A DNA stretch of 47,090 nucleotides from Escherichia phage HK630. Below the pieces are notes generated by a model. It made no database searches. It was given only the letters and a program-made list of their open reading frames with translations, and was not told the DNA's origin. The DNA lies in the sequence record NC_019723.1. The stretch is one strand, 5' to 3'. Below are positions 13,938-44,857 of this stretch, piece after piece (the stretch's first letter is position 1; every line of letters begins with the position of its first letter). A program made the translations under genes and the position numbers.

Positions 13938-13942
13938 ATCCC

Positions 13943-27620: not shown

Positions 27621-27623
27621 TCA

Positions 27624-30425: not shown

Positions 30426-30523
30426 CTTTCATTAATCCCTGAACTGTTGGTTAATACGCTTGAGGGTGAATGCGAATAATAAAAAAGGAGCCTGTAGCTC
30501 CCTGATGATTTTGCTTTTCATGT

Positions 30524-30706
30524 TCATCGTTCCTTAAAGACGCCGTTTAACATGCCGATTGCCAGGCTTAAATGAGTCGGTGTGAATCCCATCAGCGTTA
30601 CCGTTTCGCGGTGCTTCTTCAGTACGCTACGGCAAATGTCATCGACGTTTTTATCCGGAAACTGCTGTCTGGCTTTTTTTGATTTCAGAATTAGCCTGAC
30701 GGGCAA
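30524..30706 (-). CDS. hypothetical small protein (pL-operon ORF)
   Basis: 60-aa ORF in the ea22-exo interval. Confidence 0.45.
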   Translation of the reverse strand: MPVRLILKSKKARQQFPDKNVDDICRSVLKKHRETVTLMGFTPTHLSLAIGMLNGVFKER

Positions 30707-30836
30707 TGCTGCGAAGGGCGTTTTCCTGCTGAGGTGTCATTGAACAAGTCCCATGTCGGCAAGCATAAGCACACAGAATATGAAGCCCGCTGCCAGAAAA
30801 ATGCATTCCGTGGTTGTCATACCTGGTCTCTCTCAT
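30651..30836 (-). CDS. hypothetical protein orf61
   Basis: 61-aa ORF at the lambda orf61 position. Confidence 0.55.
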   Translation of the reverse strand: MRETRYDNHGMHFSGSGLHILCAYACRHGTCSMTPQQENALRSIARQANSEIKKSQTAVSG

Positions 30837-31008
30837 CTGCTTCTGCTTTCGCCACCATCATTTCCAGCTTTTGTGAAAGGGATGCGGCTAACGTATGAAA
30901 TTCTTCGTCTGTTTCTACTGGTATTGGCACAAACCTGATTCCAATTTGAGCAAGGCTATGTGCCATCTCGATACTCGTTCTTAACTCAACAGAAGATGCT
31001 TTGTGCAT
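30817..31008 (-). CDS. hypothetical protein orf63
   Basis: 63-aa ORF at the lambda orf63 position. Confidence 0.6.
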   Translation of the reverse strand: MHKASSVELRTSIEMAHSLAQIGIRFVPIPVETDEEFHTLAASLSQKLEMMVAKAEADERDQV

Positions 31009-31163
31009 ACAGCCCCTCGTTTATTATTTATCTCCTCAGCCAGCCGCTGTGCTTTCAGTGGATTTCGGATAACAGAAAGGCCGGGAAATACCCAGCCTCG
31101 CTTTGTAACGGAGTAGACGAAAGTGATTGCGCCTACCCGGATATTATCGTGAGGATGCGTCAT
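30981..31163 (-). CDS. hypothetical protein orf60a
   Basis: 60 aa from [28 protein letters not shown]...; ends just before the exo start. Confidence 0.6.
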
Positions 31164-31840
31164 CGCCATTGCTCCCCAAATACAAAACCAATTTCAGCCA
31201 GTGCCTCGTCCATTTTTTCGATGAACTCCGGCACGATCTCGTCAAAACTCGCCATGTACTTTTCATCCCGCTCAATCACGACATAATGCAGGCCTTCACG
31301 CTTCATACGCGGGTCATAGTTGGCAAAGTACCAGGCATTTTTTCGCGTCACCCACATGCTGTACTGCACCTGGGCCATGTAAGCTGACTTTATGGCCTCG
31401 AAACCACCGAGCCGGAACTTCATGAAATCCCGGGAGGTAAACGGGCATTTCAGTTCAAGGCCGTTGCCGTCACTGCATAAACCATCGGGAGAGCAGGCGG
31501 TACGCATACTTTCGTCGCGATAGATGATCGGGGATTCAGTAACATTCACGCCGGAAGTGAATTCAAACAGGGTTCTGGCGTCGTTCTCGTACTGTTTTCC
31601 CCAGGCCAGTGCTTTAGCGTTAACTTCCGGAGCCACACCGGTGCAAACCTCAGCAAGCAGGGTGTGGAAGTAGGACATTTTCATGTCAGGCCACTTCTTT
31701 CCGGAGCGGGGTTTTGCTATCACGTTGTGAACTTCTGAAGCGGTGATGACGCCGAGCCGTAATTTGTGCCACGCATCTTCCCCCTGTTCGACAGCTCTCA
31801 CATCGATCCCGGTACGCTGCAGGATAATGTCCGGTGTCAT
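31160..31840 (-). CDS. exo: lambda exonuclease (Red-alpha)
   Basis: 226-aa [43 protein letters not shown]..., lambda Exo. Confidence 0.96.
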
Positions 31841-32622
31841 GCTGCCACCTTCTGCTCTGCGGCTTTCTGTTTCAGGAATCCAAGAGCTTTTACTGCTTCG
31901 GCCTGTGTCAGTTCTGACGATGCACGAATGTCGCGGCGAAATATCTGGGAACAGAGCGGCAATAAGTCGTCATCCCATGTTTTATCCAGGGCGATCAGCA
32001 GAGTGTTAATCTCCTGCATGGTTTCATCGTTAACCGGAGTGATGTCGCGTTCCGGCTGACGTTCTGCAGTGTATGCAGTATTTTCGACAATGCGCTCGGC
32101 TTCATCCTTGTCATAGATACCAGCAAATCCGAAGGCCAGACGGGCACACTGAATCATGGCTTTATGACGTAACATCCGTTTGGGATGCGACTGCCACGGC
32201 CCCGTGATTTCTCTGCCTTCGCGAGTTTTGAATGGTTCGCGGCGGCATTCATCCATCCATTCGGTAACGCAGATCGGATGATTACGGTCCTTGCGGTAAA
32301 TCCGGCATGTACAGGATTCATTGTCCTGCTCAAAGTCCATGCCATCAAACTGCTGGTTTTCATTGATGATGCGGGACCAGCCATCAACGCCCACCACCGG
32401 AACGATGCCATTCTGCTTATCAGGAAAGGCGTAAATTTCTTTCGTCCACGGATTAAGGCCGTACTGGTTGGCAACGATCAGTAATGCGATGAACTGCGCA
32501 TCGCTGGCATCACCTTTAAATGCCGTCTGGCGAAGAGTGGTGATCAGTTCCTGTGGGTCGACAGAATCCATGCCGACACGTTCAGCCAGCTTCCCAGCCA
32601 GCGTTGCGAGTGCAGTACTCAT
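31837..32622 (-). CDS. bet: Red-beta single-strand annealing protein
   Basis: 261-aa ORF overlapping the exo start, lambda Bet. Confidence 0.96.
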
Positions 32623-32627
32623 TCGTT

Positions 32628-33044
32628 TTATACCTCTGAATCAATATCAACCTGGTGGTGAGCAATGGTTTCAACCATGTACCGGATGTGTTCTGCCATG
32701 CGCTCCTGAAACTCAACATCGTCATCAAACGCACGGGTAATGGATTTTTTGCTGGCCCCGTGGCGTTGCAAATGATCGATGCATAGCGATTCAAACAGGT
32801 GCTGGGGCAGGCCTTTTTCCATGTCGTCTGCCAGTTCTGCCTCTTTCTCTTCACGGGCGAGCTGCTGGTAGTGACGCGCCCAGCTCTGAGCCTCAAGACG
32901 ATCCTGAATGTAATAAGCGTTCATGGCTGAACTCCTGAAATAGCTGTGAAAATATCGCCCGCGAAATGCCGGGCTGATTAGGAAAACAGGAAAGGGGGTT
33001 AGTGAATGCTTTTGCTTGATCTCAGTTTCAGTATTAATATCCAT
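32628..33044 (-). CDS. gam: Gam (RecBCD inhibitor)
   Basis: 138-aa [62 protein letters not shown]..., lambda Gam. Confidence 0.95.
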
Positions 33045-33142
33045 TTTTTATAAGCGTCGACGGCTTCACGAAACATCTTTTCATCGCCAATAAAAGTGGC
33101 GATAGTGAATTTAGTCTGGATAGCCATAAGTGTTTGATCCAT
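32999..33142 (-). CDS. kil: Kil host-killing protein
   Basis: 47 aa [47 protein letters not shown] within the longer ORF-track frame. Confidence 0.8.
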
Positions 33143-33275
33143 TCTTTGGGACTCCTGGCTGATTAAGTATGTCGATAAGGCGTTTCCATCCGTCACGTAA
33201 TTTACGGGTGATTCGTTCAAGTAAAGATTCGGAAGGGCAGCCAGCAACAGGCCACCCTGCAATGGCATATTGCAT
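33111..33275 (-). CDS. cIII: CIII (FtsH inhibitor)
   Basis: 54 aa [54 protein letters not shown], identical to recalled lambda CIII. Confidence 0.93.
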   Translation of the reverse strand: MQYAIAGWPVAGCPSESLLERITRKLRDGWKRLIDILNQPGVPKNGSNTYGYPD

Positions 33276-33333
33276 GGTGTGCTCCTTATTTATACATAAC
33301 GGAAAACGCCTCTCGTGAAGCGTTATTGGTATG

Positions 33334-33362
33334 CATATAAAAAGGCCCTCACATTGGAGGGC
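33334..33362 (-). terminator. rho-independent terminator upstream of cIII in the leftward operon (tL2-like)
   Basis: Stem GCCCTC/GAGGGC (33345-33350 / 33357-33362) with a 6-nt loop, followed on the minus strand by a T-run. Confidence 0.5.
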
Positions 33363-33572
33363 AAAGAAGATTTCCAATAATCAGAACAAGTCGGCTCCTG
33401 TTTAGTTACGAGCGACATTGCTCCGTGTATTCACTCATTGGAATGAATACACAGTGCAGTGTTTATTCGTATGCCTGTCTTTTAACCACATCAGGCTCGG
33501 TGGTTCTCGTGTACCCCTACAGCGAGAAAAATAGTAAAATCCTCTTACCCCTACAGTAAGAGAGTAATTTAT

Positions 33573-34067
33573 ATGGATGTGTTATCTGGTATAACTGCCG
33601 CGAAACAGGCTTATGATCTGCTGAAGACAATAAAAGAAACCAGAGACGATGCTGTTATCGCTAAAGCTATTGGTGATCTACACCAAAGAATAACTGACTT
33701 ACAGATGCTTAATGCGGAGCTCTCTGGCCTTTATCAGGCCGAGAAGGAGATCGCAATGAAGCTTCGAGATGAAAATAGAAAAATCAAGATGTTTGTTGTG
33801 CAAGCTGAGAATTATGAACTTCATACAACTGAAGGTGGTTCTGTCGTGTATCGACCTAAGAGTCATTCCGATCATTCTATTCAGCAGCATAACCTTTGTG
33901 CACATTGCTTCGGCGAACATAAAATATCGATACTTCAACCAAGCACGGTTACTATAAAATCTAATGGATTCTTTGTGCATTCATGTCCTCGCTGTAAGAA
34001 TGAATACCGGATGTATAGAGCGCCAGACCCTAAGCCTGTATATGTACCGCCGCTGACAAATTATTAA
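33573..34067 (+). CDS. hypothetical coiled-coil / zinc-ribbon protein, transcribed opposite to the pL operon
   Basis: 164-aa ORF with SD AAGAGAG 8 nt upstream of ATG; helical heptad-like N-terminus; C-terminal CAHC...CPRC pairs; no lambda gene recognised here. Confidence 0.6.
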   Translation: MDVLSGITAAKQAYDLLKTIKETRDDAVIAKAIGDLHQRITDLQMLNAELSGLYQAEKEIAMKLRDENRKIKMFVVQAENYELHTTEGGSVVYRPKSHSDHSIQQHNLCAHCFGEHKISILQPSTVTIKSNGFFVHSCPRCKNEYRMYRAPDPKPVYVPPLTNY

Positions 34068-34097
34068 TTTTATTCCTGAAATGGCCTCTTCACCCCC

Positions 34098-34460
34098 TTA
34101 CTTTGTCAGGGGGATATCTCCTTCAGTTTTGACCATTCGCCTTAATACTTTCCTTAAGTCGATGTAAAGTTGAAGGTCTCCATTTGCTGCGGCATCAGCC
34201 ATTTTTTGCCTGACAAGCAGTAATGTTTCATACGGCTCAATAAGAATATCGTCATGAGTAATTAGGTGAAGCGTTGCCGCATCAACTATTCCTAGAGCTG
34301 CGCCAAGTATCAAAAATTCCCTGCTATTTTTGTCGCATGAGGAGATAAGCGTATTTAGCGCATACCTAATATTCTTTATAGCTGTTGTTAATGCTGCAAT
34401 TTCTTCTATGGCGTCTTCTCCAATGAGCTTTTTAAGCTCATATTTTTCTTCCTGACCCAT
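34098..34460 (-). CDS. hypothetical protein immediately downstream of N (position of lambda sieB)
   Basis: 120 aa from ATG 34460 (MGQEEKYELKKLIGEDAIEEIAALT...) with GAGGT SD; starts 3 nt after the N stop; not hydrophobic, so unlike SieB. Confidence 0.55.
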   Translation of the reverse strand: MGQEEKYELKKLIGEDAIEEIAALTTAIKNIRYALNTLISSCDKNSREFLILGAALGIVDAATLHLITHDDILIEPYETLLLVRQKMADAAANGDLQLYIDLRKVLRRMVKTEGDIPLTK

Positions 34461-34462
34461 AA

Positions 34463-34735
34463 TTACCTCGCCGTCAGTTGTTTTGATTTCCGGTAGCCTG
34501 CCGCGTAAATGGCTACGTTTGGCAGGCAAATACTTCCACTGCATTCTTCTGCCTTCTTGCAGCGAATGCTTCCGAGTGATGCTGCTTTATCTGCTCTGAC
34601 GCAACCAGAGAGCTTTAGCGCAATTTTTCGCGCCAGTCGCTGCTCTTGCATTGCCTGTTCACGTTGAGCCTGTCTGCGTGCTCTGCGGCGATTTCTGGCG
34701 TTATCGTCAGCCAGATATGTAATGACTACTGTCAT
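34463..34735 (-). CDS. N: N-like transcription antiterminator
   Basis: 90 aa; arginine-rich motif NARNRRRARRQAQREQ near the N-terminus; C-terminus ...LPNVAIYAAGYRKSKQLTAR resembles recalled P22 gp24; GGAGG SD; nut site downstream. Confidence 0.75.
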   Translation of the reverse strand: MTVVITYLADDNARNRRRARRQAQREQAMQEQRLARKIALKLSGCVRADKAASLGSIRCKKAEECSGSICLPNVAIYAAGYRKSKQLTAR

Positions 34736-34839
34736 GTTGACCTCCGATGATTGACTTTGGCGGTGACGCGCCGGGTGCTTATCTTCAGGTTGCCGTCGTG
34801 CAGCTGCACTTCACGTCACCCCAAAGCCAACTACTCTTT

Positions 34840-34885
34840 GGTTCCCGCATTTCGGCGGGACAATCCCATCAATGTTAAAGAGCCT
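34840..34885 (-). promoter_or_regulatory. nutL: nutL (boxA GCTCTTTAAC, boxB hairpin CCCGC-CGAAAU-GCGGG)
   Basis: On the leftward transcript, boxA-like CTCTTTAAC followed by a 5-bp stem/6-nt loop hairpin; the same boxB recurs at nutR. Confidence 0.65.
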
Positions 34886-34924
34886 GCCAATCTGTTCCGT
34901 TTGGCTTCCAGCGTCCTGCTGATG

Positions 34925-35035
34925 GCTAAAGAATACTGTAGGTATTTTATTGTGTAAATACCCAAGGTATTTATTTTTGATGAAATAATGATAAACAAAT
35001 GAATACAAAGGATATTTATTTTTTCGCTGTCTGCT
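34925..35035 (-). promoter_or_regulatory. OL / pL operator-promoter region
   Basis: Perfect 19-bp palindrome TAAATACCCAAGGTATTTA (34955-34973) plus imperfect copies GAATACTGTAGGTATTT (34931-34947) and GAATACAAAGGATATT; upstream of nutL and N. Confidence 0.6.
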
Positions 35036-35102
35036 TGTTCAGTGATTTTTATGCGGGATATGTGAAGTGGATCCCGATAGCTATTGCTGCCGGGATTATG
35101 GG

Positions 35103-35471
35103 TTAGTCAGCGAAGGTTAAGACGAGAATTACCTTAATGATGTCTGCTACAACAGACACGGCCATAGATAAACCAAAGACGATCCAAGCCACAGTGATGT
35201 CTTCACTACCATCGTATAGAGTTCCGTAATCACTGGTGTAAGGCGTAAATGTCGCGCCTTGATACAATAGGTATAAGCTTGATCCATAGAGGATAAATGC
35301 AGATATCCCTTGTATTGCTATGATCACAAGAATCATGAAACGAGCTGATCTATGCGCCCAAGCCTGGCTTATTTTTTCTGATAGAGATTTCGCAATAAAA
35401 GCATGCGCTAAGACGTAAATTGTCGAGATTGCCAACATCCCAAAAAAGCTTGCTATAGCGGTTCCAACCAT
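35103..35471 (-). CDS. hypothetical integral membrane protein co-transcribed with cI (position of rexAB)
   Basis: 122 aa from ATG 35471 (a TTG at 35492 would give 129 aa); about 3 predicted TM segments; AAGGGG SD; begins 18 nt after the cI stop. Confidence 0.65.
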   Translation of the reverse strand: MVGTAIASFFGMLAISTIYVLAHAFIAKSLSEKISQAWAHRSARFMILVIIAIQGISAFILYGSSLYLLYQGATFTPYTSDYGTLYDGSEDITVAWIVFGLSMAVSVVADIIKVILVLTFAD

Positions 35472-35488
35472 AATCGCCCCTTGCGTGA

Positions 35489-36205
35489 TCAAACCAGCCT
35501 TAGTTTTGTCTCAATTGCAACGCCTATAATCTTGCAGTTTCCATTGATTGGCACGAGAGGCCATGCAGGATTAAGTCCCTTGAGGTATTTATTTCCGCCG
35601 TCGATTATCAGCTTCTTGAATGTTGCTTCGTTAGAGTCAGAAAGTTTTGCTATGACCAAGCTGCCGTTGATCGCCTCCCTTCCGGTATCGAAAAGAACGA
35701 ATGTTCCCTCTGGAATGCTTAACCCAACCGGTGCCGTCATTGAATCACCTTCCACTTTAAGCCAGAACGCATTACCTTGAATATGCGCGTCAGACTCAAG
35801 CCAAACATCTATGTCTTTAATGGTGTATGGTTCGCATGCTTCACACCACGAGCCAGCCTGGATACTGCTTAACACCGGATACCTCTTTCCTGCTCTGTAT
35901 TCCCCTGCATACCTTACGTTGGCATCGCTCTTAAGGCTTTCTGCCTGTTCTGCAACCTTGGCAACAATTGACTGGCTAAAATCAGCAATAGAGACTTGCA
36001 ACAATCGTGCAAAACCAGATGCAACCTCAACGTTTAGCGCGTTTCTGCCATTAAGATAATGCCCTACCGCTCCTTGGGTGATACCCAGTTCATCAGCGAT
36101 TGAGTATTGGGTTATTCCCAATTCTTTCTTTTTTGACTCATACAAAGCCTTAAGCCGCTTAGCGTCTTCGAGCTGTTCTGTCGTCAGTGATTTTTTATTT
36201 TCCAT
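35489..36205 (-). CDS. cI: CI-family repressor (HTH N-domain + LexA/S24-like C-domain), non-lambda immunity
   Basis: 238 aa MENKKSLTTEQLEDAKRLKALYESKKKELGITQ...; C-terminal ...WLKVEGDSMTAPVGLSIPEGTFVLFD...ATFKKL... resembles CI/C2 autocleavage domains. Confidence 0.9.
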   Translation of the reverse strand: MENKKSLTTEQLEDAKRLKALYESKKKELGITQYSIADELGITQGAVGHYLNGRNALNVEVASGFARLLQVSIADFSQSIVAKVAEQAESLKSDANVRYAGEYRAGKRYPVLSSIQAGSWCEACEPYTIKDIDVWLESDAHIQGNAFWLKVEGDSMTAPVGLSIPEGTFVLFDTGREAINGSLVIAKLSDSNEATFKKLIIDGGNKYLKGLNPAWPLVPINGNCKIIGVAIETKLRLV

Positions 36206-36300
36206 AGCTTAATTCTAATAGCTAAGGTACTTAAACTAAAAATACCCTGAGTATTGATTGCTTTGAATACCTGTAGTATTCTTTGTTCATGGTTAATAAC
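36206..36300. promoter_or_regulatory. OR operators with divergent pRM/pR
   Basis: Operator-like palindromes AAATACCCTGAGTATT (36238-36257) and GAATACCTGTAGTATTC (36264-36283) between divergent cI and cro, same half-site as OL. Confidence 0.6.
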
Positions 36301-36311
36301 GGAGAGTGCAT

Positions 36312-36506
36312 ATGATTCGAATGACACTTGCCGATTACGCCAAAATCCATGGACAGGCTAAAGCAGCCAGTGACTTTGGTGTAATCCAGTGCGCTATCAG
36401 CAAGGCCATTCTGGCAGGCCGTAACATCATGGTTACGGTAAAGCCTGATGGCAGTGTGATTGGAGAGGAAGTTCGTCCTTTCCCAAGCAACAAGAAAAAC
36501 AAATAG
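36312..36506 (+). CDS. cro: Cro-like repressor
   Basis: 64 aa [64 protein letters not shown], similar to lambda Cro in the HTH and C-terminal PFPSNKK; GGAGAG SD. Confidence 0.88.
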
Positions 36507-36511
36507 TAACA

Positions 36512-36561
36512 CCGCTCTTTAACAGTCATGGTCCTCATTCCCGCCGAAATGCGGGAATACA
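36512..36561 (+). promoter_or_regulatory. nutR: nutR (boxA CGCTCTTTAA, boxB hairpin identical to nutL)
   Basis: CGCTCTTTAA at 36512-36521 and hairpin TCCCGCCGAAATGCGGGAA at about 36540-36560, between cro and cII. Confidence 0.65.
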
Positions 36562-36614
36562 ACGCGCATAAGTTGATGCGCATAACTTCTTATTTGTTAA
36601 GGAAATACTTACAT

Positions 36615-36893
36615 ATGCAACTTACAAGTACTCGCAAGAAAGCGAATGCAATTACAAGCAACATCCTAAATCGAATTGCTGTACGTGGTCAGCGAAAGGT
36701 TGCTGATGCATTAGGGATCAATGAATCGCAAATTTCGCGATGGAAAGACAGCTTTATCCCAAAGATGGCCATGCTTCTGGCTGTGCTGGAGTGGGGTGTT
36801 GAAGACGAGGAGTTGGCGGAACTGGCTAAGAAAGTAGCCAGAATGCTGACAAAAGAAAAAGCCCCGAAGAACGGCGAATTCTTCGAGGCCTAA
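36615..36893 (+). CDS. cII: CII-like transcriptional activator
   Basis: 92 aa from ATG 36615; ...[45 protein letters not shown] closely matches recalled lambda CII ([25 protein letters not shown]). Confidence 0.88.
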
Positions 36894-36927
36894 TGTAGAA
36901 AGACTGGATCAATCCACGGGAGTAATT

Positions 36928-37074
36928 ATGACAAAACAACTCAGTCCTTACCAGGACAAAATTCACAAACACATACTACGTGATCGCTTCCTGTCCAGCT
37001 TCAAGCAGCCTGGTCGATTCCGGGCTGAGTTGGAAAAAGTGAAGCTGATGCAGAAGGAGAAAGGTCATGAGTAA
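36928..37074 (+). CDS. small basic hypothetical protein (48 aa) overlapping the O start
   Basis: ATG 36928 with GGAG 8 nt upstream; [48 protein letters not shown]; below the ORF-track size cutoff. Confidence 0.35.
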
Positions 37075-37966
37075 CATATCTAATCTAGCCGAAGCCAGAG
37101 AGGCCAGAAGGCTACAACAACCGCATCAAAGCAGCGGTAAGGGGTATGCCTTGCTGCACCGTAAAATTATGGATGTGCCGTTTTACAAGGACGCAGAAGC
37201 AGCGCATCTGTGGGTTCACTTAATTCTCAAAGCAAAGCATACGCCTGAGTATGTAATGACTGACGCAGGAGAAATTCTGGTAGGCAGAGGGAAGCTACTT
37301 GGCGGTAGAAACTCTCTGGCGTTTGAAACAGGACTCAAACCAGATCGCGTTCAGTACCTGCTTAGAAAGTTCAAAAAACTCGGCATGATTGACTGGGTTT
37401 CACACGGTAAATTCTCAGTTTTCTCGGTAGAGAAATATGACGATTATCAGTCAAATTTTGTACCAGCAGATTACCAGCAAATTACCACCTCAAAGCCAGC
37501 AATACCAATGCCTGTAAGCAATACTGTACCAGCAGATTACCAGCAAATTACCACAGATAAAGAATATAATAATATTATCTCTAATACTGACGTATTAGAG
37601 AGTGCCACAGTAGACAAAAAGTCTGACAAGAAAAAACCTTCCGTTAGCTGTCAGGATGTTGTCGATGCTTACCACGAAATCCTTCCTGAAGCGCCAAAAA
37701 TCCGCGCACTGAATGACAAGCGTAAAAACCAGATCCGAACGTTCTGGCGCAAAGCCGGAGTGATAACCCGCCAGCTTGACGGGCATGGGTTCACGATGCA
37801 GGACTGGAGAAATTATTTGATCTACGTAGGCGAAAATTGCCGATGGATGTTCGAAGAACGCCCAAACCATCAACGCGGAACCGTCTGGCACAAAAAGGGA
37901 TTTGATTTCCTGCTTAACGACAATACCTACCTGAAAGTTCGTGAGGGTGAACACGATGACCGATAA
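37067..37966 (+). CDS. O: replication initiator (O-like), iterons embedded in the coding sequence
   Basis: 299-aa ORF at the position of lambda O; the internal direct repeats encode the duplicated [10 protein letters not shown] peptide. Confidence 0.8.
37460..37600. repeat. ori: replication origin: two 29-bp direct repeats (six ~11-bp TACCAGCA iterons) plus AT-rich stretch
   Basis: GTACCAGCAGATTACCAGCAAATTACCAC at 37460-37488 and 37526-37554, followed by AGATAAAGAATATAATAATATTATCTCTAATA. Confidence 0.65.
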
Positions 37967-39392
37967 TTTTTATGCGCCGCCCCATAGCATCGAGGCAGAG
38001 CAGGCGGTGATTGGTGGATTGCTTCTGGATGATGACAGCAGTGAGCGCGTCCAGAAAGTTCTGGCGATGCTGAAGCCTGACTCATTTTACAGCCGGCCAC
38101 ACAAAATCCTTTTCGAAGAAATAACCAGAATGCACCGGGAGCAAAAGCCAGTAGATGGCCTGACGCTTTTCGATGAACTGGAGCGTAAATCGTTAACGGC
38201 GTCTGTTGGCGGTTTTGCTTATATCGCTGAGATCGCAAAGAACACGCCGAGCGCCGCAAACATCGTTGCCTATGCAATGCAGGTTCGTGAAACCGCAATG
38301 GAACGCTACGCCATCAACCGCATGACTGAAGCGACGGAATTGCTCTATTCCCGCAACGGAATGACTGCAACGCAGAAGTACGAAGCTATTCAGGCGATTT
38401 TCACGCAACTGACAGACCATGCAAAAACCGGATCGCGTCGCGGCCTTCGCTCATTTGGTGAGGTCATGGAAGACTGGGTTAGCGACCTTGAGAAGCGATT
38501 TGACCCGTCAGGCGAACAGCGAGGAATGAGCACAGGGATCCCATCGCTGGACAGGATGCTGTCACCGAAAGGTCTGGTGAAAGGTTCTCTGTTTGTCATT
38601 GGCGCTCGCCCTAAGATGGGGAAAACGACGCTATACAGCCAGATGGCAATCAACTGCGCAGTGCATGAGAAAAAGCCCGCTCTGATGTTCAGCCTTGAAA
38701 TGCCAGGTGACCAGATACTGGAAAAACTGGTAGGGCAGAAGTCTGGTGTTAACCCGAATATTTTTTACCTTCCGGCGACAAATGACGCTGATGACGGCTA
38801 TCAGGGTGATTACGATGGTGACTTCAACAGGGCGATCGAAACAGCCAATCGCTTGAGTGAAATCGACATGCTTTACATCGACGACACGCCGGGATTATCT
38901 CTGGCTCAAATCGTCAGCGAAAGCCGTCGAATCAAGCGAGAAAAAGGATGTGTTGGCATGATTCTGGTCGATTACCTGACACTAATGACCGCTGAAAAGG
39001 CCGATCGCAACGACCTTGCTTACGGCATGATCACCAAAGGACTGAAGAACCTTGCCAAAGAGCTTGATTGCGTTGTTGTGCTTCTGACGCAGCTTAACCG
39101 CGCATTGGAAAGCAGAACCAATAAACGCCCATTACCAAGTGACTCACGAGATACAGGGCAGATTGAACAGGATTGCGATTATTGGGTGGGGATCCATCGT
39201 GAAGGCGCTTTTGATGACAGTGTTCCACCTGGTGAAACTGAACTAATCCTTCGTCTCAATCGTCATGGCAATACCGGCACGGTGTATTGCATTCAGGCAA
39301 ATGGCGCTATTTATGACACCGACCAACAGTCTGCTGAAATGCGCCGCCGTGAACGCGAGGAACCGCAGTCCAAGAAGAAAGGAGGATTCTGA
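37956..39392 (+). CDS. DnaB-family replicative helicase
   Basis: 478 aa from ATG 37956, overlapping the O stop; Walker A GARPKMGKTT and DnaB-like N-domain (SIEAEQAVIGGLLLD). Confidence 0.85.
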   Translation: MTDNFYAPPHSIEAEQAVIGGLLLDDDSSERVQKVLAMLKPDSFYSRPHKILFEEITRMHREQKPVDGLTLFDELERKSLTASVGGFAYIAEIAKNTPSAANIVAYAMQVRETAMERYAINRMTEATELLYSRNGMTATQKYEAIQAIFTQLTDHAKTGSRRGLRSFGEVMEDWVSDLEKRFDPSGEQRGMSTGIPSLDRMLSPKGLVKGSLFVIGARPKMGKTTLYSQMAINCAVHEKKPALMFSLEMPGDQILEKLVGQKSGVNPNIFYLPATNDADDGYQGDYDGDFNRAIETANRLSEIDMLYIDDTPGLSLAQIVSESRRIKREKGCVGMILVDYLTLMTAEKADRNDLAYGMITKGLKNLAKELDCVVVLLTQLNRALESRTNKRPLPSDSRDTGQIEQDCDYWVGIHREGAFDDSVPPGETELILRLNRHGNTGTVYCIQANGAIYDTDQQSAEMRRREREEPQSKKKGGF

Positions 39393-39420
39393 TGACCATC
39401 TACATCACTGAGCTAATAAC

Positions 39421-39453
39421 AGGCCTGCTGGTAATCGCAGGCCTTTTTATTTG
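39421..39453 (+). terminator. rho-independent terminator after the helicase gene (tR2-like)
   Basis: Stem AGGCCTGC/GCAGGCCT with 8-nt loop followed by TTTTTATTT. Confidence 0.7.
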
Positions 39454-39467
39454 GGGGAGAGTAAATC

Positions 39468-39674
39468 GTGGCTGAGTTGATTTTCTCTGCATTGAGGATT
39501 CTCGGTGCTATGTGGATGGTGGCGACGTTCATTGTGGTTGCCAGCAGTTTTGTCCGGTTGGTAGGCGAAGGTAAAGACCTGGTTGGTGTGCTTTTCGGTA
39601 GCATTTTTCTGTGGGTGATTATCGGTGTTATGCCTGTCGCTGTAGCAAAAATGGCGTGGCGTTTTGTTAGTTGA
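39468..39674 (+). CDS. hypothetical small two-TM membrane protein
   Basis: 68-aa ORF from GTG 39468 with GGGGAGAG SD; two hydrophobic helices, basic C-terminus KMAWRFVS. Confidence 0.5.
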   Translation: MAELIFSALRILGAMWMVATFIVVASSFVRLVGEGKDLVGVLFGSIFLWVIIGVMPVAVAKMAWRFVS

Positions 39675-39681
39675 GGTGACA

Positions 39682-40092
39682 ATGAAGCAAACAATCTTCC
39701 TCCGAACTAAGCAACAACAGCAAGCTGCAATAAATGCCATCCTCGCAACACCACTCGATAAAGACAAGCCAGTCACCATCCGCATTACTGACTACAAGCG
39801 CAACCTTGACCAGAACGCAAAATTTCACGTGATGCTGGCGGATATCGCTCGTCAGGTTCAATGGTGCGGCAAATGGTTAAAACCGGAACAATGGAAGGTT
39901 TTGTTGATCAGCGGTCATGCAGTGGCTACAAAGCAGGAAGCTGATGTTTTGCCCGGCCTTGAAGGCGAATACGTCAACATTCGCGAAAGCAGCGCGCAGA
40001 TGAGCGTGAAGCGCATGGCAAGCCTGATTGAGTACACGACAGCATGGGCTATTGGTCAGGGTGTCAGATTTACCGACAGGAGGTACGAATGA
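39682..40092 (+). CDS. ninB: NinB (Orf-family recombination mediator) homologue
   Basis: 136 aa from ATG 39682 with GAGGTGA SD; ...[27 protein letters not shown]... resembles recalled lambda NinB (RSLDQNRKLWACLGDVSRQVEWHGRWL) but is divergent. Confidence 0.75.
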
Positions 40093-40265
40093 GACGACAG
40101 CGACGAAGTTTCACCGACATCATCTGCGAAAACTGCAAATACCTTCCAACGAAGCGCTCCAGAAATAAACGCAAGCCAATCCCAAAAGAATCTGACGTAA
40201 AAACCTTCAACTACACGGCTCACCTGTGGGATATCCGGTGGCTAAGACATCGTGCGAGGAAATGA
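40089..40265 (+). CDS. ninE: NinE
   Basis: 58 aa [58 protein letters not shown]; ATGA overlap with the ninB stop. Confidence 0.8.
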
Positions 40266-40669
40266 CAATGCTTTTAATTCAACCTGGATTTGGCCTTAGC
40301 ATCAAAAAAGGGCACATGTTTGGCGAGAAAGAGTCTCAACGAAAAATGGTGTCTATCCAGTTGCCATTTATCAGTATTTTATGGCTAAACAGGGAGGCAA
40401 CAAATTATTGGTATACATGCGCCAGAGCAGCATTTAACGACCCTGACTGGTTTGTGGAAAACCACCACGCAGTTCGTCAGGCAAAGAGAAAGGCCAATAC
40501 GACATACATGAAGGCGTATCGAAAAGCATGGAAAGAACACCGCGATCGATACCAACAAGACATGGAAAAACTTGAATCAGAAAACATGGAATTAAGACGA
40601 AAGCTTGGTGAAGCAAAACGAGACATTGATGCTTACAAGCGACTTTTTAATGGTGAAAGCCATGCTTAG
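40262..40669 (+). CDS. hypothetical protein between ninE and ninF (NinX-like position)
   Basis: 135 aa from ATG 40262 (ATGA overlap with the ninE stop); C-terminal coiled-coil-like region; absent from lambda. Confidence 0.55.
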
Positions 40670-40838
40670 CCCATCCCAATACATTCAATACCAGAAAGAA
40701 AGCGTCGAGCGGGCTTTAACGTGCGCTAACTGCGGTCAGAAGCTGCATGTGCTGGAAGTTCACGTGTGTGAGCACTGCTGCGCAGAACTGATGAGCGATC
40801 CGAATAGCTCGATGCACGAGGAAGAAGATGATGGCTAA
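40662..40838 (+). CDS. ninF: NinF
   Basis: 58 aa [58 protein letters not shown], near-identical to recalled lambda NinF. Confidence 0.8.
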
Positions 40839-41442
40839 ACCAGCGCGAAGACGATGTAAAAACGATGAATGCCGGGAATGGTTTCACCCTGCATTCGCTA
40901 ATCAGTGGTGGTGCTCTCCAGAGTGTGGAACCAAGATAGCACTCGAACGACGAAGTAAAGAACGCGAAAAAGCGGAAAAAGCAGCAGAGAAGAAACGACG
41001 ACGAGAGGAGCAGAAACAGAAAGATAAACTTAAGATTCGAAAACTCGCCTTAAAGCCCCGCAGTTACTGGATTAAACAAGCCCAACAAGCCGTAAACGCC
41101 TTCATCAGAGAAAGAGACCGCGACTTACCATGTATCTCGTGCGGAACGCTCACGTCTGCTCAGTGGGATGCCGGACATTACCGGACAACTGCTGCGGCAC
41201 CTCAACTCCGATTTAATGAACGCAATATTCACAAGCAATGCGTGGTGTGCAACCAGCACAAAAGCGGAAATCTCGTTCCGTATCGCGTCGAACTGATTAG
41301 CCGCATCGGGCAGGAAGCAGTAGACGAAATCGAATCAAACCATAACCGCCATCGCTGGACTATCGAAGAGTGCAAGGCGATCAAGGCAGAGTACCAACAG
41401 AAACTCAAAGACCTGCGAAATAGCAGAAGTGAGGCCGCATGA
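40828..41442 (+). CDS. ninG: NinG (Rap-like Holliday junction endonuclease)
   Basis: 204-aa ORF with Cys clusters, lambda NinG position. Confidence 0.88.
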
Positions 41443-41645
41443 CGTTCTCAGTAAAAACCATTCCAGACATGCTCGTTGAAGCATACGGAAATCAGACAGA
41501 AGTAGCACGCAGACTGAAATGTAGTCGCGGTACGGTCAGAAAATACGTTGATGATAAAGACGGGAAAATGCACGCCATCGTCAACGACGTTCTCATGGTT
41601 CATCGCGGATGGAGTGAAAGAGATGCGCTATTACGAAAAAATTGA
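41439..41645 (+). CDS. ninH: NinH
   Basis: 68-aa ORF overlapping the ninG stop. Confidence 0.8.
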
Positions 41646-42288
41646 TGGCAGCAAATACCGAAATATTTGGGTAGTTGGCGATCTGCACGGATGCTACACG
41701 AACCTGATGAACAAACTGGATACGATTGGATTCGACAACAAAAAAGACCTGCTTATCTCGGTGGGCGATTTGGTTGATCGTGGTGCAGAGAACGTTGAAT
41801 GCCTGGAATTAATCACATTCCCCTGGTTCAGAGCTGTACGTGGAAACCATGAGCAAATGATGATTGATGGCTTATCAGAGCGTGGAAACGTTAATCACTG
41901 GCTGCTTAATGGCGGTGGCTGGTTCTTTAATCTCGATTACGACAAAGAAATTCTGGCTAAAGCTCTTGCCCATAAAGCAGATGAACTTCCGTTAATCATC
42001 GAACTGGTGAGCAAAGATAAAAAATATGTTATCTGCCACGCCGATTATCCCTTTGACGAATACGAGTTTGGAAAGCCAGTTGATCATCAGCAGGTAATCT
42101 GGAACCGCGAACGAATCAGCAACTCACAAAACGGGATCGTGAAAGAAATCAAAGGCGCGGACACGTTCATCTTTGGTCATACGCCAGCAGTGAAACCACT
42201 CAAGTTTGCCAACCAAATGTATATCGATACCGGCGCAGTGTTCTGCGGAAACCTAACATTGATTCAGGTACAGGGAGAAGGCGCATGA
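41623..42288 (+). CDS. ninI: Ser/Thr protein phosphatase NinI
   Basis: 221 aa from [25 protein letters not shown]...; metallophosphatase motifs GDLHG, GDLVDRG, GNHE. Confidence 0.9.
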
Positions 42289-42908
42289 GACTCGAAAGCG
42301 TAGCTAAATTTCATTCGCCAAAAAGCCCGATGATGAGCGACTCACCACGGGCCACGGCTTCTGACTCTCTTTCCGGTACTGATGTGATGGCTGCTATGGG
42401 GATGGCGCAATCACAAGCCGGATTCGGTATGGCTGCATTCTGCGGTAAGCACGAACTCAGCCAGAACGACAAACAAAAGGCTATCAACTATCTGATGCAA
42501 TTTGCACACAAGGTATCGGGGAAATACCGTGGTGTGGCAAAGCTTGAAGGAAATACTAAGGCAAAGGTACTGCAAGTGCTCGCAACATTCGCTTATGCGG
42601 ATTATTGCCGTAGTGCCGCGACGCCGGGGGCAAGATGCAGAGATTGCCATGGTACAGGCCGTGCGGTTGATATTGCCAAAACAGAGCTGTGGGGGAGAGT
42701 TGTCGAGAAAGAGTGCGGAAGATGCAAAGGCGTCGGCTATTCAAGGATGCCAGCAAGCGCAGCATATCGCGCTGTGACGATGCTAATCCCAAACCTTACC
42801 CAACCCACCTGGTCACGCACTGTTAAGCCGCTGTATGACGCTCTGGTGGTGCAATGCCACAAAGAAGAGTCAATCGCAGACAACATTTTGAATGCGGTCA
42901 CACGTTAG
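42285..42908 (+). CDS. Q: late gene antiterminator Q
   Basis: 207-aa ORF with zinc-binding CRDCHGTG...CGRCKG, lambda Q. Confidence 0.93.
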
Positions 42909-42951
42909 CAGCATGATTGCCACGGATGGCAACATATTAACGGCATGATAT

Positions 42952-42980
42952 TGACTTATTGAATAAAATTGGGTAAATTT
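42952..42980 (+). promoter_or_regulatory. late promoter pR' (-35 TTGACT, 17-nt spacer, -10 TAAATT), overlapping qut
   Basis: TTGACTtattgaataaaattgggTAAATT about 45 nt after the Q stop; position matches lambda pR'. Confidence 0.75.
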
Positions 42981-42986
42981 GACTCA

Positions 42987-43180
42987 ACGATGGGTTAATT
43001 CGCTCGTTGTGGTAGTGAGATGAAAAGAGGCGGCGCTTACTACCGATTCCGCCTAGTTGGTCACTTCGACGTATCGTCTGGAACTCCAACCATCGCAGGC
43101 AGAGAGGTCTGCAAAATGCAATCCCGAAACAGTTCGCAGGTAATAGTTAGAGCCTGCATAACGGTTTCGGGATTTTTTAT
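42987..43180 (+). ncRNA. 6S late leader RNA (pR' to tR')
   Basis: Interval from the predicted pR' start to the strong terminator hairpin ending about 43180. Confidence 0.55.
43122..43180 (+). terminator. tR' rho-independent terminator
   Basis: Long inverted repeat TCCCGAAAC...GTTTCGGGA followed by TTTTTTAT. Confidence 0.8.
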
Positions 43181-43584
43181 ATCTGCACAACAGGTAAGAG
43201 CATTGAGTCGATAATCGTGAAGAGTCGGCGAGCCTGGTTAGCCAGTGCTCTTTCCGTTGTGCTGAATTAAGCGAATACCGGAAGCAGAACCGGATCACCA
43301 AATGCGTACAGGCGTCATCGCCGCCCAGCAACAGCACAACCCAAACTGAGCCGTAGCCACTGTCTGTCCTGAATTCATTAGTAATAGTTACGCTGCGGCC
43401 TTTTACACATGACCTTCGTGAAAGCGGGTGGCAGGAGGTCGCGCTAACAACCTCCTGCCGTTTTGCCCGTGCATATCGGTCACGAACAAATCTGATTACT
43501 AAACACAGTAGCCTGGATTTGTTCTATCAGTAATCGACCTTATTCCTAATTAAATAGAGCAAATCCCCTTATTGGGGGTAAGAC

Positions 43585-43908
43585 ATGAAGATGCCAGAAA
43601 AACATGACCTGTTGGCCGCCATTCTCGCGGCAAAGGAACAAGGCATCGGGGCAATCCTTGCGTTTGCAATGGCGTACCTTCGCGGCAGATATAATGGCGG
43701 TGCGTTTACAAAAACAGTAATCGACGCAACGATGTGCGCCATTATCGCCTGGTTCATTCGTGACCTTCTCGACTTCGCCGGACTAAGTAGCAATCTCGCT
43801 TATATAACGAGCGTGTTTATCGGCTACATCGGTACTGACTCGATTGGTTCGCTTATCAAACGCTTCGCTGCTAAAAAAGCCGGAGTAGAAGATGGTAGAA
43901 ATCAATAA
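43585..43908 (+). CDS. S: holin S (S107/S105 dual start)
   Basis: 107 aa [34 protein letters not shown]... with Met1 and Met3 starts and three TM segments. Confidence 0.95.
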
Positions 43909-44826: not shown

Positions 44827-44857
44827 AGTTGCCCATATCGATGGGCAACTCATGCAA

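What the first reader, a model, noticed from the sequence alone, without database searches (positions are those of the whole stretch)
33370..40700. Mosaic genome: lambda backbone carrying a heterologous immunity-replication-early nin segment
Everything outside about 33370-40700 translates to proteins I recognise as lambda. Inside, N, cI, cro and cII are divergent homologues, replication uses an iteron-containing O-like initiator with a DnaB-type helicase, and the ninB/ninE/extra-ORF/ninF order resembles P22. I could not identify the donor phage by eye. The left junction falls between the tL2-like hairpin (about 33362) and the + gene, and the right junction near ninF-ninG.
Basis: partly seen in the sequence, partly recalled or inferred. 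Interest (0 to 1): 0.45.

Follow-up and report, generated by a model that had tools for sequence, protein, structure and literature searches.

The report
Known phage HK630: lambda–HK620 hybrid
The window is the complete genome of the already deposited phage HK630: laboratory-type lambda in which a 7.5-kb block for immunity, replication and early nin genes has been swapped for one almost identical to phages HK620 and HK629, which is a textbook mosaic and not a new element.

Summary

- **Arms:** Window 1-33180 and 40811-47090 (84% of the window) match laboratory lambda. Against a resequenced stock there are no substitutions and one T-run length difference. The split stf gene of lambda PaPa is retained.
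- **Insert:** The block between is foreign and has two sources.
  - 33181-38077 matches HK620 exactly except for two bases, both changing cI.
  - 39106-40810 matches HK629 exactly.
- **Crossovers:** They lie in short shared stretches: 33181-33301 (cIII 5' half and upstream), 39106-39205 (3' end of the helicase gene) and 40713-40810 (inside ninF).
- **Identity:** The resulting hybrid NinF is annotated in public data only as "NinF protein [Escherichia phage HK630]". It has been seen on a contig of 47,090 bases, exactly the window's length.
  - The left junction lies about 70-190 bp further left than stated.
  - N and "O" are functional analogues, not recognisable lambda homologues.
  - The extra nin ORF is not P22 NinX.
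- **Curiosities:**
  - The backbone is laboratory lambda, so HK630 is probably a recent, possibly lab-born, recombinant.
  - HK620 and HK630 each carry one private cI substitution.

The parts
1..33180 (.). Lambda left arm: nu1 through the virion genes, b region, att-int-xis, exo-bet-gam-kil and the 3' half of cIII. It is laboratory lambda type.
   Evidence: 99.97% identical to NC_001416. Seven differences from the 1982 reference; six of them are shared with resequenced lab lambda PV340536. Against PV340536 there are 0 substitutions; the only real difference is a T-run at 19444. stf is still split into ORFs ending at 20667 and 21785.
33181..33301 (.). Left crossover interval: 121 bp identical in lambda, HK620 and HK629, covering cIII codons 1-32 and 26 bp upstream.
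   Evidence: Three-way alignment. The window carries lambda alleles up to 33180 and HK620 alleles from 33302.
33303..33362 (-). tL2B and tL2A type terminators, HK620 version.
   Evidence: Transferred from the HK620 annotation at a constant offset of 27090; base-identical.
33573..34067 (+). hkaP-like ORF (164 aa). HK620 annotates it as a putative superinfection-exclusion protein; it occupies the sieB position.
   Evidence: 100% identical to HK620 hkaP and HK629_042. phrog_1244, function unknown; no Pfam hit.
34098..34460 (-). hkaQ (120 aa), function unknown.
   Evidence: 100% identical to HK620 hkaQ; phrog_7374.
34463..34735 (-). Antiterminator N of the HK620/21/H-19B type (90 aa).
   Evidence: 100% identical to HK620 N. 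Pfam PF25694 N_peptide, E = 1e-15. Only the arginine-rich motif resembles lambda N. 37% identical to P22 gp24.
34843..34884 (-). nutL (boxA and boxB hairpin).
   Evidence: Identical to the HK620 annotated nutL.
34923..34994 (-). pL with operators OL1, OL2 and OL3.
   Evidence: Identical to the HK620 annotated sites. The operators are 17-mers: OL1, OL2, OR2 and OR1 are of the form (A/G)AATAC-N5-GTATT(T/C/G), OR3 is a degenerate version (TAATAG-N5-GTACTT) and OL3 does not fit the form.
35103..35471 (-). hkaS (122 aa), a hydrophobic protein downstream of cI in the position of lambda rex.
   Evidence: 100% identical to HK620 hkaS; phrog_6534, function unknown.
35489..36205 (-). cI repressor of the HK620 immunity type (238 aa) carrying a private A81V substitution.
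   Evidence: 99.2% identical to HK620 cI and 43% to lambda cI. Pfam HTH_3 plus Peptidase_S24. Residues 66 and 81 compared across ten sequences.
36216..36289 (+). OR3, OR2 and OR1 with pR (and the divergent pRM region).
   Evidence: Identical to the HK620 annotated sites.
36312..36506 (+). cro (64 aa).
   Evidence: 100% identical to HK620 Cro and 63% to lambda Cro; Pfam PF09048 Cro.
36513..36558 (+). nutR (boxA CGCTCTTTAA plus boxB hairpin).
   Evidence: Identical to the HK620 annotation.
36615..36893 (+). cII (92 aa), with the pRE region and a perfect TTGC-N6-TTGC box at 36648-36661.
   Evidence: 100% identical to HK620 cII, 53% to lambda cII and 85% to P22 c1. Pfam Phage_CII. Motif scan.
36928..37074 (+). 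hkaW (48 aa), homologue of P22 orf48.
   Evidence: 100% identical to HK620 hkaW and 85% to P22 orf48.
37067..37966 (+). Replication initiator 'O' (299 aa). It is an analogue of lambda O, not a recognisable homologue.
   Evidence: 100% identical to HK620 O (AAK28872) and to AFH20802. phrog_345 'replication initiation O-like' with weaker DnaD-like loader families. No Pfam family above cut-off. BLASTP against lambda O gives E = 4.8. 25% identical to P22 gp18, E = 0.002.
37459..37600 (+). Origin inside the O gene. Two 30-bp blocks (37459-37488 and 37525-37554) each hold three 11-bp-spaced (G/T)TACCA(G/C)(C/A) units. An A+T-rich stretch follows.
   Evidence: the repeat finder, sequence, unit positions. 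Identical to the HK620 rep_origin annotation.
37956..39392 (+). Replicative helicase 'P' (478 aa), DnaB type and unrelated to lambda P.
   Evidence: Pfam DnaB N-terminal (3e-31) plus DnaB_C (3e-60). 100% identical to HK620 P, 99.8% to HK629 P and 31% to P22 gp12.
39106..39205 (.). Internal switch from HK620-type to HK629-type sequence, at the 3' end of the helicase gene.
   Evidence: The last difference from HK629 is at 39105. Differences from HK620 resume at 39206.
39392..39475 (+). ninA-like small ORF overlapping the tR2 terminator (39420-39452).
   Evidence: 96% identical to both HK620 and P22 ninA. tR2 is identical to the HK620 annotation.
39510..39674 (+). ORF54, a small hydrophobic protein.
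   Evidence: 100% identical to HK629_051; phrog_1165, function unknown.
39682..40092 (+). ninB (136 aa), an Orf-family recombination mediator.
   Evidence: 100% identical to HK629 NinB, 97% to HK620 and 38% to lambda NinB; phrog_72.
40089..40265 (+). ninE (58 aa).
   Evidence: Identical to HK629 over this stretch; 96.6% to HK620, 93% to lambda and 96.6% to P22.
40262..40669 (+). Extra ORF135, a basic coiled-coil protein of unknown function. It is absent from lambda and HK620.
   Evidence: 100% identical to HK629_054. phrog_1511, function unknown. No NinX Pfam hit and no BLASTP match to P22 NinX.
40662..40838 (+). Hybrid ninF (58 aa): the 5' part is HK629-type and the 3' part is lambda.
   Evidence: Alignment. 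The exact protein is AFH20809.1 / YP_007112594.1 'NinF protein [Escherichia phage HK630]'.
40713..40810 (.). Right crossover interval: 98 bp identical in lambda and HK629, inside ninF.
   Evidence: The last non-lambda site is 40712. The first site that is lambda-type and not HK629/HK620-type is 40811.
40811..47090 (.). Lambda right arm: ninG-ninH-ninI-Q, the lysis genes, bor, cos (between 46901 and 46902), and the 189 bp upstream of nu1.
   Evidence: 0 differences from resequenced lab lambda PV340536 over 6,280 nt. Two differences from the 1982 reference.

Best explanation
The window is the complete 47,090-bp genome of Escherichia phage HK630, a three-source recombinant.

**Structure.**
- About 84% is laboratory lambda (PaPa type): the virion genes, b region, int-xis, red-gam-kil-cIII, ninG to Q, lysis genes and cos.
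- Lambda's ea10-ral-sieB-N-rex-cI-cro-cII-O-P-ren-ninB-ninC-ninD-ninE block (about 8.9 kb) has been replaced by a 7.5-kb cassette.
- From the region upstream of cIII to near the end of the helicase gene, the cassette is HK620 sequence. From there into ninF it is HK629 sequence.

**How it formed.** The exchanges took place by homologous recombination in short stretches that the parents share exactly: 121 bp at cIII, 100 bp in the helicase gene and 98 bp in ninF.

**Why it is viable.** The cassette is self-contained. It carries:
- its own N with matching nutL and nutR;
- its own cI and Cro with matching OL and OR operators;
- its own CII and pRE;
- its own initiator, with the origin inside the initiator gene, and its own DnaB-type helicase.

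The phage should therefore have lambda's particle, host range, integration site and late control, together with HK620's immunity and replication specificity. The functions that must cross the junctions are generic. The CII boxes at pI and paQ in the lambda arms have the same TTGC-N6-TTGC form as the box in the insert. Lambda CIII acts on the host protease.

**Shown versus inferred.** The sequence relationships, breakpoints, gene families and identity with HK630 are shown. The phenotypes (immunity, independence from host DnaB) and the place where the recombination happened are inferred.
For: **Arms equal lambda.**
- Searches give the overall match.
- There are 0 substitutions against resequenced lab lambda PV340536 in 39.46 kb.
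- The split stf of lambda PaPa is retained. PMC12617516 states that laboratory lambda differs from Ur-lambda by this frameshift.

**Insert.**
- Only 2 differences from HK620 in 33181-38077, and 0 differences from HK629 in 39106-40810.
- All 18 HK620 regulatory features I transferred are base-identical.
- Gene-by-gene identities are; Pfam and PHROG assignments are.

**Breakpoints.**

**Identity with HK630.**
- Among annotated records the hybrid NinF carries only the HK630 accessions AFH20809.1 / YP_007112594.1, with a longest contig of 47090.
- N, hkaP, hkaS and O also carry AFH20795, AFH20793, AFH20797 and AFH20802, in the window's gene order.
- HK630 is a listed Lambdavirus species.
- HK630 is reported as indistinguishable from lambda by optical mapping (10.1101/609412).
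- Its spanins are reported as identical to lambda's (PMC6139136).

**No closer donor.** None among 50,697 phage records or 5,426 complete E. coli genomes.

**Mechanism.**
- Lambda Red recombines short and diverged homologies efficiently and is proposed to generate lambdoid mosaics (PMC2327257).
- cI and cro, and other interdependent neighbours, are preferentially co-transferred (PMC9836094).
- The exact O protein, next to a 478-aa DnaB-type helicase in most of the loci, sits beside at least four different repressor types in P22-like prophages.
Against: - I could not align the window with the HK630 nucleotide record. It is not in the phage collection, and the contig look-up returned only two unrelated assemblies. 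Identity therefore rests on proteins, accession order and contig length.
- The window's exact cI protein and the 56-aa version of NinF were not found in the protein collection. For cI this is unexplained if the HK630 record is fully included.
- The same NinF protein also occurs in two natural lambda-like contigs that are 98.2% identical in DNA. The 'hybrid' allele is therefore not unique at the protein level.
- No experiment here shows immunity, replication or viability.
Confidence: 0.93

Rival explanations
1. HK630 is a recent descendant of laboratory lambda PaPa that recombined with an HK620/HK629-family phage or prophage in a laboratory setting. The route could have been a deliberate cross, propagation on a lysogen, or contamination of an isolation. 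On this view it is not an independent natural isolate. This refines the main explanation rather than contradicting it.
For: - The arms carry 0 substitutions against a modern lab lambda in 39.46 kb and retain the PaPa stf frameshift (PMC12617516).
- Natural lambda relatives in the collection are only about 96-98% identical.
- The two closest donors carry the same 'HK' isolate prefix, and the HK629 record gives Hong Kong as its country.
- HK629 and the window alone share the T-run variant at 19444.
- No closer donor exists among 5,426 E. coli genomes.
- The only changes from HK620 in 4.9 kb are in cI, the gene phage geneticists select on.
Against: - No document I could read states how HK630 was obtained. 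Clark 2001, Dhillon 1998 and the Casjens-Hendrix review are not held.
- Laboratory lambda could in principle have escaped and recombined outside the laboratory.
- The T-run variant could be a shared homopolymer sequencing error.
Confidence: 0.75
2. The sequence is an assembly chimera, with reads of lambda (a common control or contaminant DNA) joined to reads of HK620- and HK629-like phages at shared repeats. On this view it is not a real phage genome.
For: - All three switches fall exactly in stretches of 98-121 bp shared by the sources, where an assembler could also switch.
- The arms are identical to lab lambda.
- HK629 has a similar JQ-series accession, which suggests but does not show that it was deposited by the same sequencing effort as HK630.
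Against: - The genome is functionally complete and non-redundant: one copy of each essential early function, all junction ORFs intact (cIII, P, ninF), and matching protein-site sets.
- Its 47.1-kb length is within lambda's packaging range (established knowledge).
- The insert is not a copy of either sequenced relative. It has a private cI A81V and lacks HK620's T66, so the reads cannot all come from those two phages.
- Homologous recombination predicts the same junction positions.
Confidence: 0.04
3. HK630 is a wild lambda relative whose arms merely resemble lambda through common ancestry, and the insert is an old natural module exchange.
For: - Lambdoid mosaicism is pervasive in nature (PMC9836094).
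- The O-P module is shared by many prophages.
- The GenBank records of related HK phages list Hong Kong as the country.
Against: - Zero substitutions in 39 kb against lab lambda, plus the laboratory-specific stf frameshift, are incompatible with independent natural descent.
- Zero to two differences from HK620 and HK629 over kilobases mean that the exchanges are very recent.
Confidence: 0.03

Closest known systems
Escherichia phage HK630 (species Lambdavirus HK630; proteins AFH20793-AFH20809, YP_007112580-YP_007112594)
   Same: It has the same length (47,090 bp). The junction-specific NinF is an exact match, as are N, hkaP, hkaS and O, with accession numbers running in the window's gene order. 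It is classified in Lambdavirus.
   Different: Nothing detected. The nucleotide record itself could not be aligned here.
Classical lambda immunity hybrids (lambda imm434, lambda imm21) and lambda-P22 hybrids that carry P22 immunity and replication genes
   Same: All have lambda arms with a substituted central block containing the repressor, cro and operators, exchanged at flanking homology. Lambda imm434 and imm21 records share identical arms with the window. As in lambda-P22 hybrids, the substitution also brings a DnaB-type helicase replication module (a lambda-P22 hybrid host-requirement paper is cited in PMC3349717).
   Different: The donor is HK620/HK629-type. The substitution is longer than in imm434: it runs from upstream of cIII to ninF and includes N, O, P and part of nin. 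The insert itself has two sources.
Phage HK620 (AF335538; P22-like podovirus, Lederbergvirus)
   Same: From the region upstream of cIII to near the end of P (window 33181-39105) there are only 5 base differences. The operators, nut sites, origin and terminators are identical. The immunity specificity is predicted to be the same.
   Different: HK620 has P22-like virion genes, a different integrase and recombination module, and no ORF135. Its cI record has T66 where the window has A66, and A81 where the window has V81.
Phage HK629 (JQ182735; Lambdavirus HK629)
   Same: The left arm 1-27556 is identical, including the T-run variant. Window 39106-40810 (end of P, ORF54, ninB, ninE, ORF135, 5' part of ninF) is identical.
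   Different: HK629 has a P22 c2-type repressor, a different O, a non-lambda early-left region, roi-rusA and a different Q. Its right arm is 0.9% diverged from lambda.

Membership tests
Phage lambda backbone (genus Lambdavirus) | Lambda-type virion, integration, recombination, late-control and lysis genes at near identity and in lambda order | tested here: met
   Window 1-33180 and 40811-47090 are colinear with lambda at 99.97% or better. HK630 is classified in Lambdavirus.
Phage lambda backbone (genus Lambdavirus) | Same species as lambda, meaning near identity over essentially the whole genome (the ICTV practice of about 95% is quoted from my own knowledge) | tested here: not met
   About 16% of the window (33181-40810) is not lambda. 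Only four short islands there match lambda.
Lambda immunity-substitution hybrids (imm434/imm21/immP22 kind) | Lambda arms flanking a foreign block that contains the repressor, cro and their operators, with crossovers in shared flanking homology | tested here: met
   Crossovers lie in a 121-bp and a 98-bp shared stretch. The foreign cI, cro, OL and OR are present.
Lambda immunity-substitution hybrids (imm434/imm21/immP22 kind) | Heteroimmune to lambda and homoimmune to the donor | not testable with these tools
   This is predicted from 43% cI identity to lambda and from operators identical to HK620. It needs plating tests.
HK620 immunity and early-regulation module | HK620-type cI, Cro, N and CII with matching OL1-3, OR1-3, nutL, nutR and pRE | tested here: met
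   N, Cro and CII are 100% identical and cI is 99.2% identical. All annotated sites are identical.
Lambda O/P replication module | An initiator homologous to lambda O (Pfam Phage_rep_O) and a lambda P-type loader that recruits host DnaB | tested here: not met
   BLASTP of O against lambda O gives E = 4.8, and there is no Phage_rep_O hit. P is a DnaB-family helicase (PF00772 plus PF03796), and lambda P gave no tblastn match in the window.
Initiator plus own DnaB-type helicase module (P22 18/12, HK022, HK620 kind) | An origin of short direct repeats followed by an A+T-rich stretch inside the initiator gene, followed directly by a phage-encoded DnaB-type helicase gene | tested here: met
   Six 11-bp-spaced units in two blocks, then an A+T-rich stretch, lie inside O. 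The helicase gene overlaps the end of O. The helicase is 31% identical to P22 gp12; O is only marginally similar to P22 gp18, E = 0.002.
P22-type nin region (ninB-ninD-ninE-ninX-ninF) | A NinX-family protein between ninE and ninF | tested here: not met
   ORF135 has no PF10765 hit and no BLASTP match to P22 NinX. It belongs to phrog_1511. ninD is absent. NinE and NinF themselves are 93-97% identical to P22's.

The most novel reading that the evidence does not exclude
HK630, and in its left arm also HK629, may not be independent natural lambda relatives even though both are listed as separate Lambdavirus species. They may be very recent recombinants of laboratory lambda PaPa with HK620-family phages, most likely formed in a laboratory. 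If so, they would be unsuitable as examples of 'natural' lambda diversity, and their species status would rest on a lab-made mosaic.
Probability: 0.7. Interest if true: 0.2.

Novelty: already known. Interest (0 to 1): 0.08.

Why it matters
It matters little for discovery. Lambdoid phages are the textbook case of modular, mosaic genomes, and this particular mosaic is a deposited and classified phage.

The analysis has three practical uses.
1. It gives base-level breakpoints and names the sources of each part. This is a clean worked example of exchange at 100-120-bp shared 'linker' stretches.
2. It shows that the lambda portion is laboratory lambda. Studies that use HK630 or HK629 as natural relatives of lambda (for example for J-protein or spanin diversity) should be aware of this.
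3. It flags that the HK620 reference repressor has Thr at the position that aligns with lambda cI Ala66. From memory, that is the cI857 site.

Tried and rejected
- **A single closer donor.** I searched 50,697 phage records and 5,426 complete E. coli genomes. Nothing beat HK620 (94% coverage at 98.5%) plus HK629. No phage record spans the left junction.
- **The HK630 nucleotide record.**
  - My remembered accession NC_019723 is not in the collection.
  - The exact-protein contig look-up found nothing for cI.
  - For NinF it returned only two unrelated Logan contigs, which are natural lambda-like sequence at 98.2% identity.
- **Primary literature on the origin of HK630.** Clark et al. 2001, Dhillon et al. 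1998 and the Casjens-Hendrix review are not held. The papers that mention HK630 only list it.
- **'O' as a diverged lambda O.** Rejected.
- **N as a diverged lambda N.** Only the arginine-rich motif is similar.
- **ORF135 as P22 NinX.** Rejected.
- **An assembly chimera.** Considered unlikely because the genome is functionally coherent and the insert has private alleles.
- **The hybrid NinF as proof of a unique event.** Weakened, because the same protein occurs in wild relatives. The DNA-level switch from 100% HK629 to 100% lambda still stands.

Full report
**1. What the window is.**

Megablast of the two halves of the window against 50,697 phage records showed the following.
- Bases 1-24000 are identical to HK629 and virtually identical to lambda. 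They start at the same base as the HK629 record, which is lambda position 191, the nu1 start codon.
- No single record covers the right half.

Local BLASTN against lambda NC_001416 gave three matches, so the window is a whole genome written from nu1:
- window 1-33334 = lambda 191-33522 (99.97%);
- window 40696-46901 = lambda 42297-48502 (99.97%);
- window 46902-47090 = lambda 1-190.

Between the arms only four short islands match lambda: 33335-33468, 33472-33529, 39391-39461 and 40096-40262. The observation of a lambda backbone with a foreign central block at about 33370-40700 is therefore confirmed.

**2. The donor.**

The block matches HK620 (AF335538) over 94% of its length at 98.5%. The differences are very unevenly distributed.
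- From 33181 to 38077 there are only two, at 35964 and 36010, and both fall in cI.
- A three-base patch at 38078-38096 carries HK629 alleles.
- From 39206 onward the differences from HK620 become frequent.
- Against HK629 (JQ182735) the reverse holds: differences are scattered up to 39105, and then there are none at all from 39106 to 40810.

The insert is therefore itself bipartite: HK620-type on the left and HK629-type on the right. The switch lies in the 100 bp 39106-39205, at the 3' end of the helicase gene.

The extra ORF between ninE and ninF (40262-40669) is absent from HK620 and lambda. It is 100% identical to HK629_054.

No closer donor exists in 5,426 complete E. coli genomes. The best covers 84% at 98.2% for the whole block and reaches 97.8% for the P-nin part.

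**3. Breakpoints.**

Three-way alignments locate the outer crossovers by diagnostic sites.
- **Left.** The window carries lambda alleles through 33177 and 33180, and HK620 alleles from 33302. The exchange therefore lies in 33181-33301: cIII codons 1-32 plus 26 bp upstream, a stretch identical in all parents. cIII and kil are 100% lambda at the protein level.
- **Right.** The last non-lambda site is 40712, and the first site that is lambda-type but not HK629/HK620-type is 40811. The exchange therefore lies in 40713-40810, inside ninF.

It is actually 70-190 bp further left. The hairpin region belongs to the HK620 side, although lambda has a 96% similar copy elsewhere (lambda 33923-34056).

Relative to lambda, about 8.9 kb (ea10 through most of ninF) is replaced by about 7.5 kb. 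This accounts for the genome being about 1.4 kb shorter.

**4. Identity of the phage.**

Exact-sequence look-ups showed the following.
- The 58-aa NinF that spans the right junction is annotated only as 'NinF protein [Escherichia phage HK630]' (AFH20809.1, YP_007112594.1; its UniRef entry has a single member, HK630). The longest contig carrying it is 47,090 bases, which is the window's length.
- N, hkaP, hkaS and O also carry AFH20795, AFH20793, AFH20797 and AFH20802, in the window's gene order.
- HK630 is a listed species of Lambdavirus.
- It is described as practically indistinguishable from lambda by optical mapping (10.1101/609412).
- Its spanins are reported to be identical to lambda's (PMC6139136).

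The HK630 nucleotide record is not in the collection I could search, so a direct DNA alignment was not possible. The same NinF protein also occurs on two assembled contigs from natural lambda relatives that are 98.2% identical in DNA. The allele is thus not unique as a protein, but the DNA-level switch in the window is unambiguous.

**5. Anatomy and predicted working of the insert.**

Window 33181-38077 is colinear with HK620 at a constant offset of 27,090. I transferred 18 regulatory features from the HK620 annotation, and all are base-identical: tL2B, tL2A, tL1, nutL, pL, OL1-3, tIMM, OR1-3, pR, nutR, pRE, the cII site, ori and tR2.

Proteins:

| Protein | Size | Closest relatives and family |
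|---|---|---|
| hkaP, hkaQ, hkaS, hkaW | - | 100% HK620; function unknown |
| N | 90 aa | 100% HK620; Pfam N_peptide |
| cI | 238 aa | 99.2% HK620, 43% lambda; HTH plus S24 peptidase |
| Cro | 64 aa | 100% HK620, 63% lambda |
| CII | 92 aa | 100% HK620, 53% lambda, 85% P22 c1 |
| 'O' | 299 aa | 100% HK620 |
| 'P' | 478 aa | DnaB N- and C-terminal domains |

- 'O' has no detectable similarity to lambda O (E = 4.8) and no Pfam family above cut-off. It falls in PHROG 345, 'replication initiation O-like', with weaker DnaD-like loader matches.
- The origin lies inside the O gene. Two 30-bp blocks each hold three 11-bp-spaced (G/T)TACCA(G/C)(C/A) units, followed by an A+T-rich stretch.
- N shares only its arginine-rich motif with lambda N.

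The cassette is therefore a complete, internally matched set: antiterminator and nut sites; repressor, Cro and operators; CII and pRE; initiator, origin and helicase. This explains why it can replace lambda's set as a unit.

Cross-junction dependencies look compatible. Perfect TTGC-N6-TTGC boxes occur in the insert (36648) and at pI (28903) and paQ (42572) in the lambda arms.

Phenotypes are inferred, not shown. The phage should have HK620 immunity and replication that does not depend on lambda P, together with lambda host range, integration and late control.

**6. The P22 comparison.**

Compared directly with P22:
- NinA, NinE and NinF are 93-97% identical.
- CII is 85% identical to c1.
- The helicase is 31% identical to gp12.
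- 'O' is only marginally similar to gp18.
- ORF135 has no similarity to NinX.

The resemblance in gene order is therefore positional only.

**7. Mechanism of formation.**

All three switches lie in 98-121-bp stretches that the parents share exactly. This is the pattern expected from homologous recombination at conserved inter-module sequences.
- Lambda's Red system, which is retained in the left arm, recombines short and diverged homology efficiently and has been proposed as a driver of lambdoid mosaicism (PMC2327257).
- Co-transfer of functionally interdependent neighbours such as cI and cro is documented (PMC9836094).
- The exact O protein of the window occurs beside at least four different repressor types in P22-like prophages, next to a 478-aa DnaB-type helicase in most of those loci. 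This shows the same modularity in nature.

**8. Provenance.**

The arms differ from the 1982 lambda reference at nine positions. Eight of these are shared by a lambda stock resequenced in 2025, PV340536. Against that stock:
- the right arm has 0 differences in 6,280 nt;
- the left arm's only real difference is a T-run length at 19444; five extra bases at attP sit at that record's linearisation point.

The stf gene is split exactly as in laboratory lambda. Laboratory lambda (PaPa) differs from the original Ur-lambda by this frameshift (PMC12617516).

By contrast, natural lambda relatives are 96-98% identical. The backbone is therefore laboratory lambda.

The nearest relatives of the insert are two other phages with the 'HK' prefix. 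HK629 alone shares the T-run variant. I infer that HK630 is a very recent recombinant, probably lab-associated. I could not find a document that says so.

**9. Verdict.**

The window is a known phage and the phenomenon is textbook. Novelty is 'already known' and interest is low.

Noticed in passing
window 35964 and 36010 (cI, 35489-36205, minus strand): These are the only two differences from HK620 in 4.9 kb, and both change an amino acid in cI. Eight other repressors of this type all have Ala66 and Ala81. The HK620 record alone has Thr66. That position aligns exactly with lambda cI Ala66, which from memory is the site of the cI857 A66T temperature-sensitive mutation. The window alone has Val81. 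Each phage may therefore carry a laboratory-selected repressor mutation.
   Followed up: partly
window 19438-19444 (T-run upstream of stf orf-401): A run of seven T where lambda J02459 and resequenced lambda PV340536 have six. Only HK629 shares it. It is either a shared derived marker linking HK629 and HK630, or the same homopolymer sequencing error in both.
   Followed up: partly
L003 (HK629) 1-27556 versus 43533-47288: HK629's left arm is identical to the window and to lab lambda, but its lysis-cos end is 0.9% diverged (33 mismatches in 3.76 kb). HK629 therefore also looks like a recombinant between laboratory lambda and a wild relative.
   Followed up: no
window 36648-36661 versus 36615-36638: A perfect CII box (TTGC-N6-TTGC on the minus strand, GCAATTACAAGCAA) lies 10 bp to the right of the site HK620 annotates as the cII binding site. 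It is nearly identical to the pI box in the lambda arm (28903, GCAATTACACGCAA). The HK620 annotation of pRE may be misplaced.
   Followed up: no
window 38078-38096 (inside the helicase gene): Three clustered synonymous sites carry HK629 alleles inside otherwise HK620-identical sequence. This is a possible short conversion tract or a shared polymorphism.
   Followed up: no
L004-L013 (prophages encoding the exact O protein): The identical 299-aa initiator, followed in most of these loci by a 478-aa DnaB-type helicase, sits in P22-like prophages. They carry at least four different repressor types (216, 210, 231 and 237/238 aa) and varied nin regions. Two of the loci (L008, L011) look like decayed prophage remnants.
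   Followed up: no
window 40262-40669 (ORF135): A basic, heptad-rich C-terminal half. One database source names the protein 'bZIP domain-containing'. It is widespread in E. coli prophages (a cluster of 966 members) at the NinX position but is unrelated to NinX. Its function is unknown.
   Followed up: partly
window 35103-35471 (hkaS) and 33573-34067 (hkaP): A hydrophobic 122-aa protein sits just downstream of cI, where lambda has rexA and rexB. A 164-aa + strand ORF sits where lambda and P22 have sieB. Both are candidates for prophage-expressed exclusion functions, but neither has a family assignment.
   Followed up: no
L014 and L015 (Logan contigs ERR2933051_101 and ERR987334_675): These natural lambda-like ninF-ninG-ninH-phosphatase-Q-S-R stretches are 98.2% identical to lambda and encode exactly the same NinF protein as HK630. 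In L014 it follows a NinX gene and sits in a genome with a Phage_rep_O initiator and a primase-type replication protein.
   Followed up: partly
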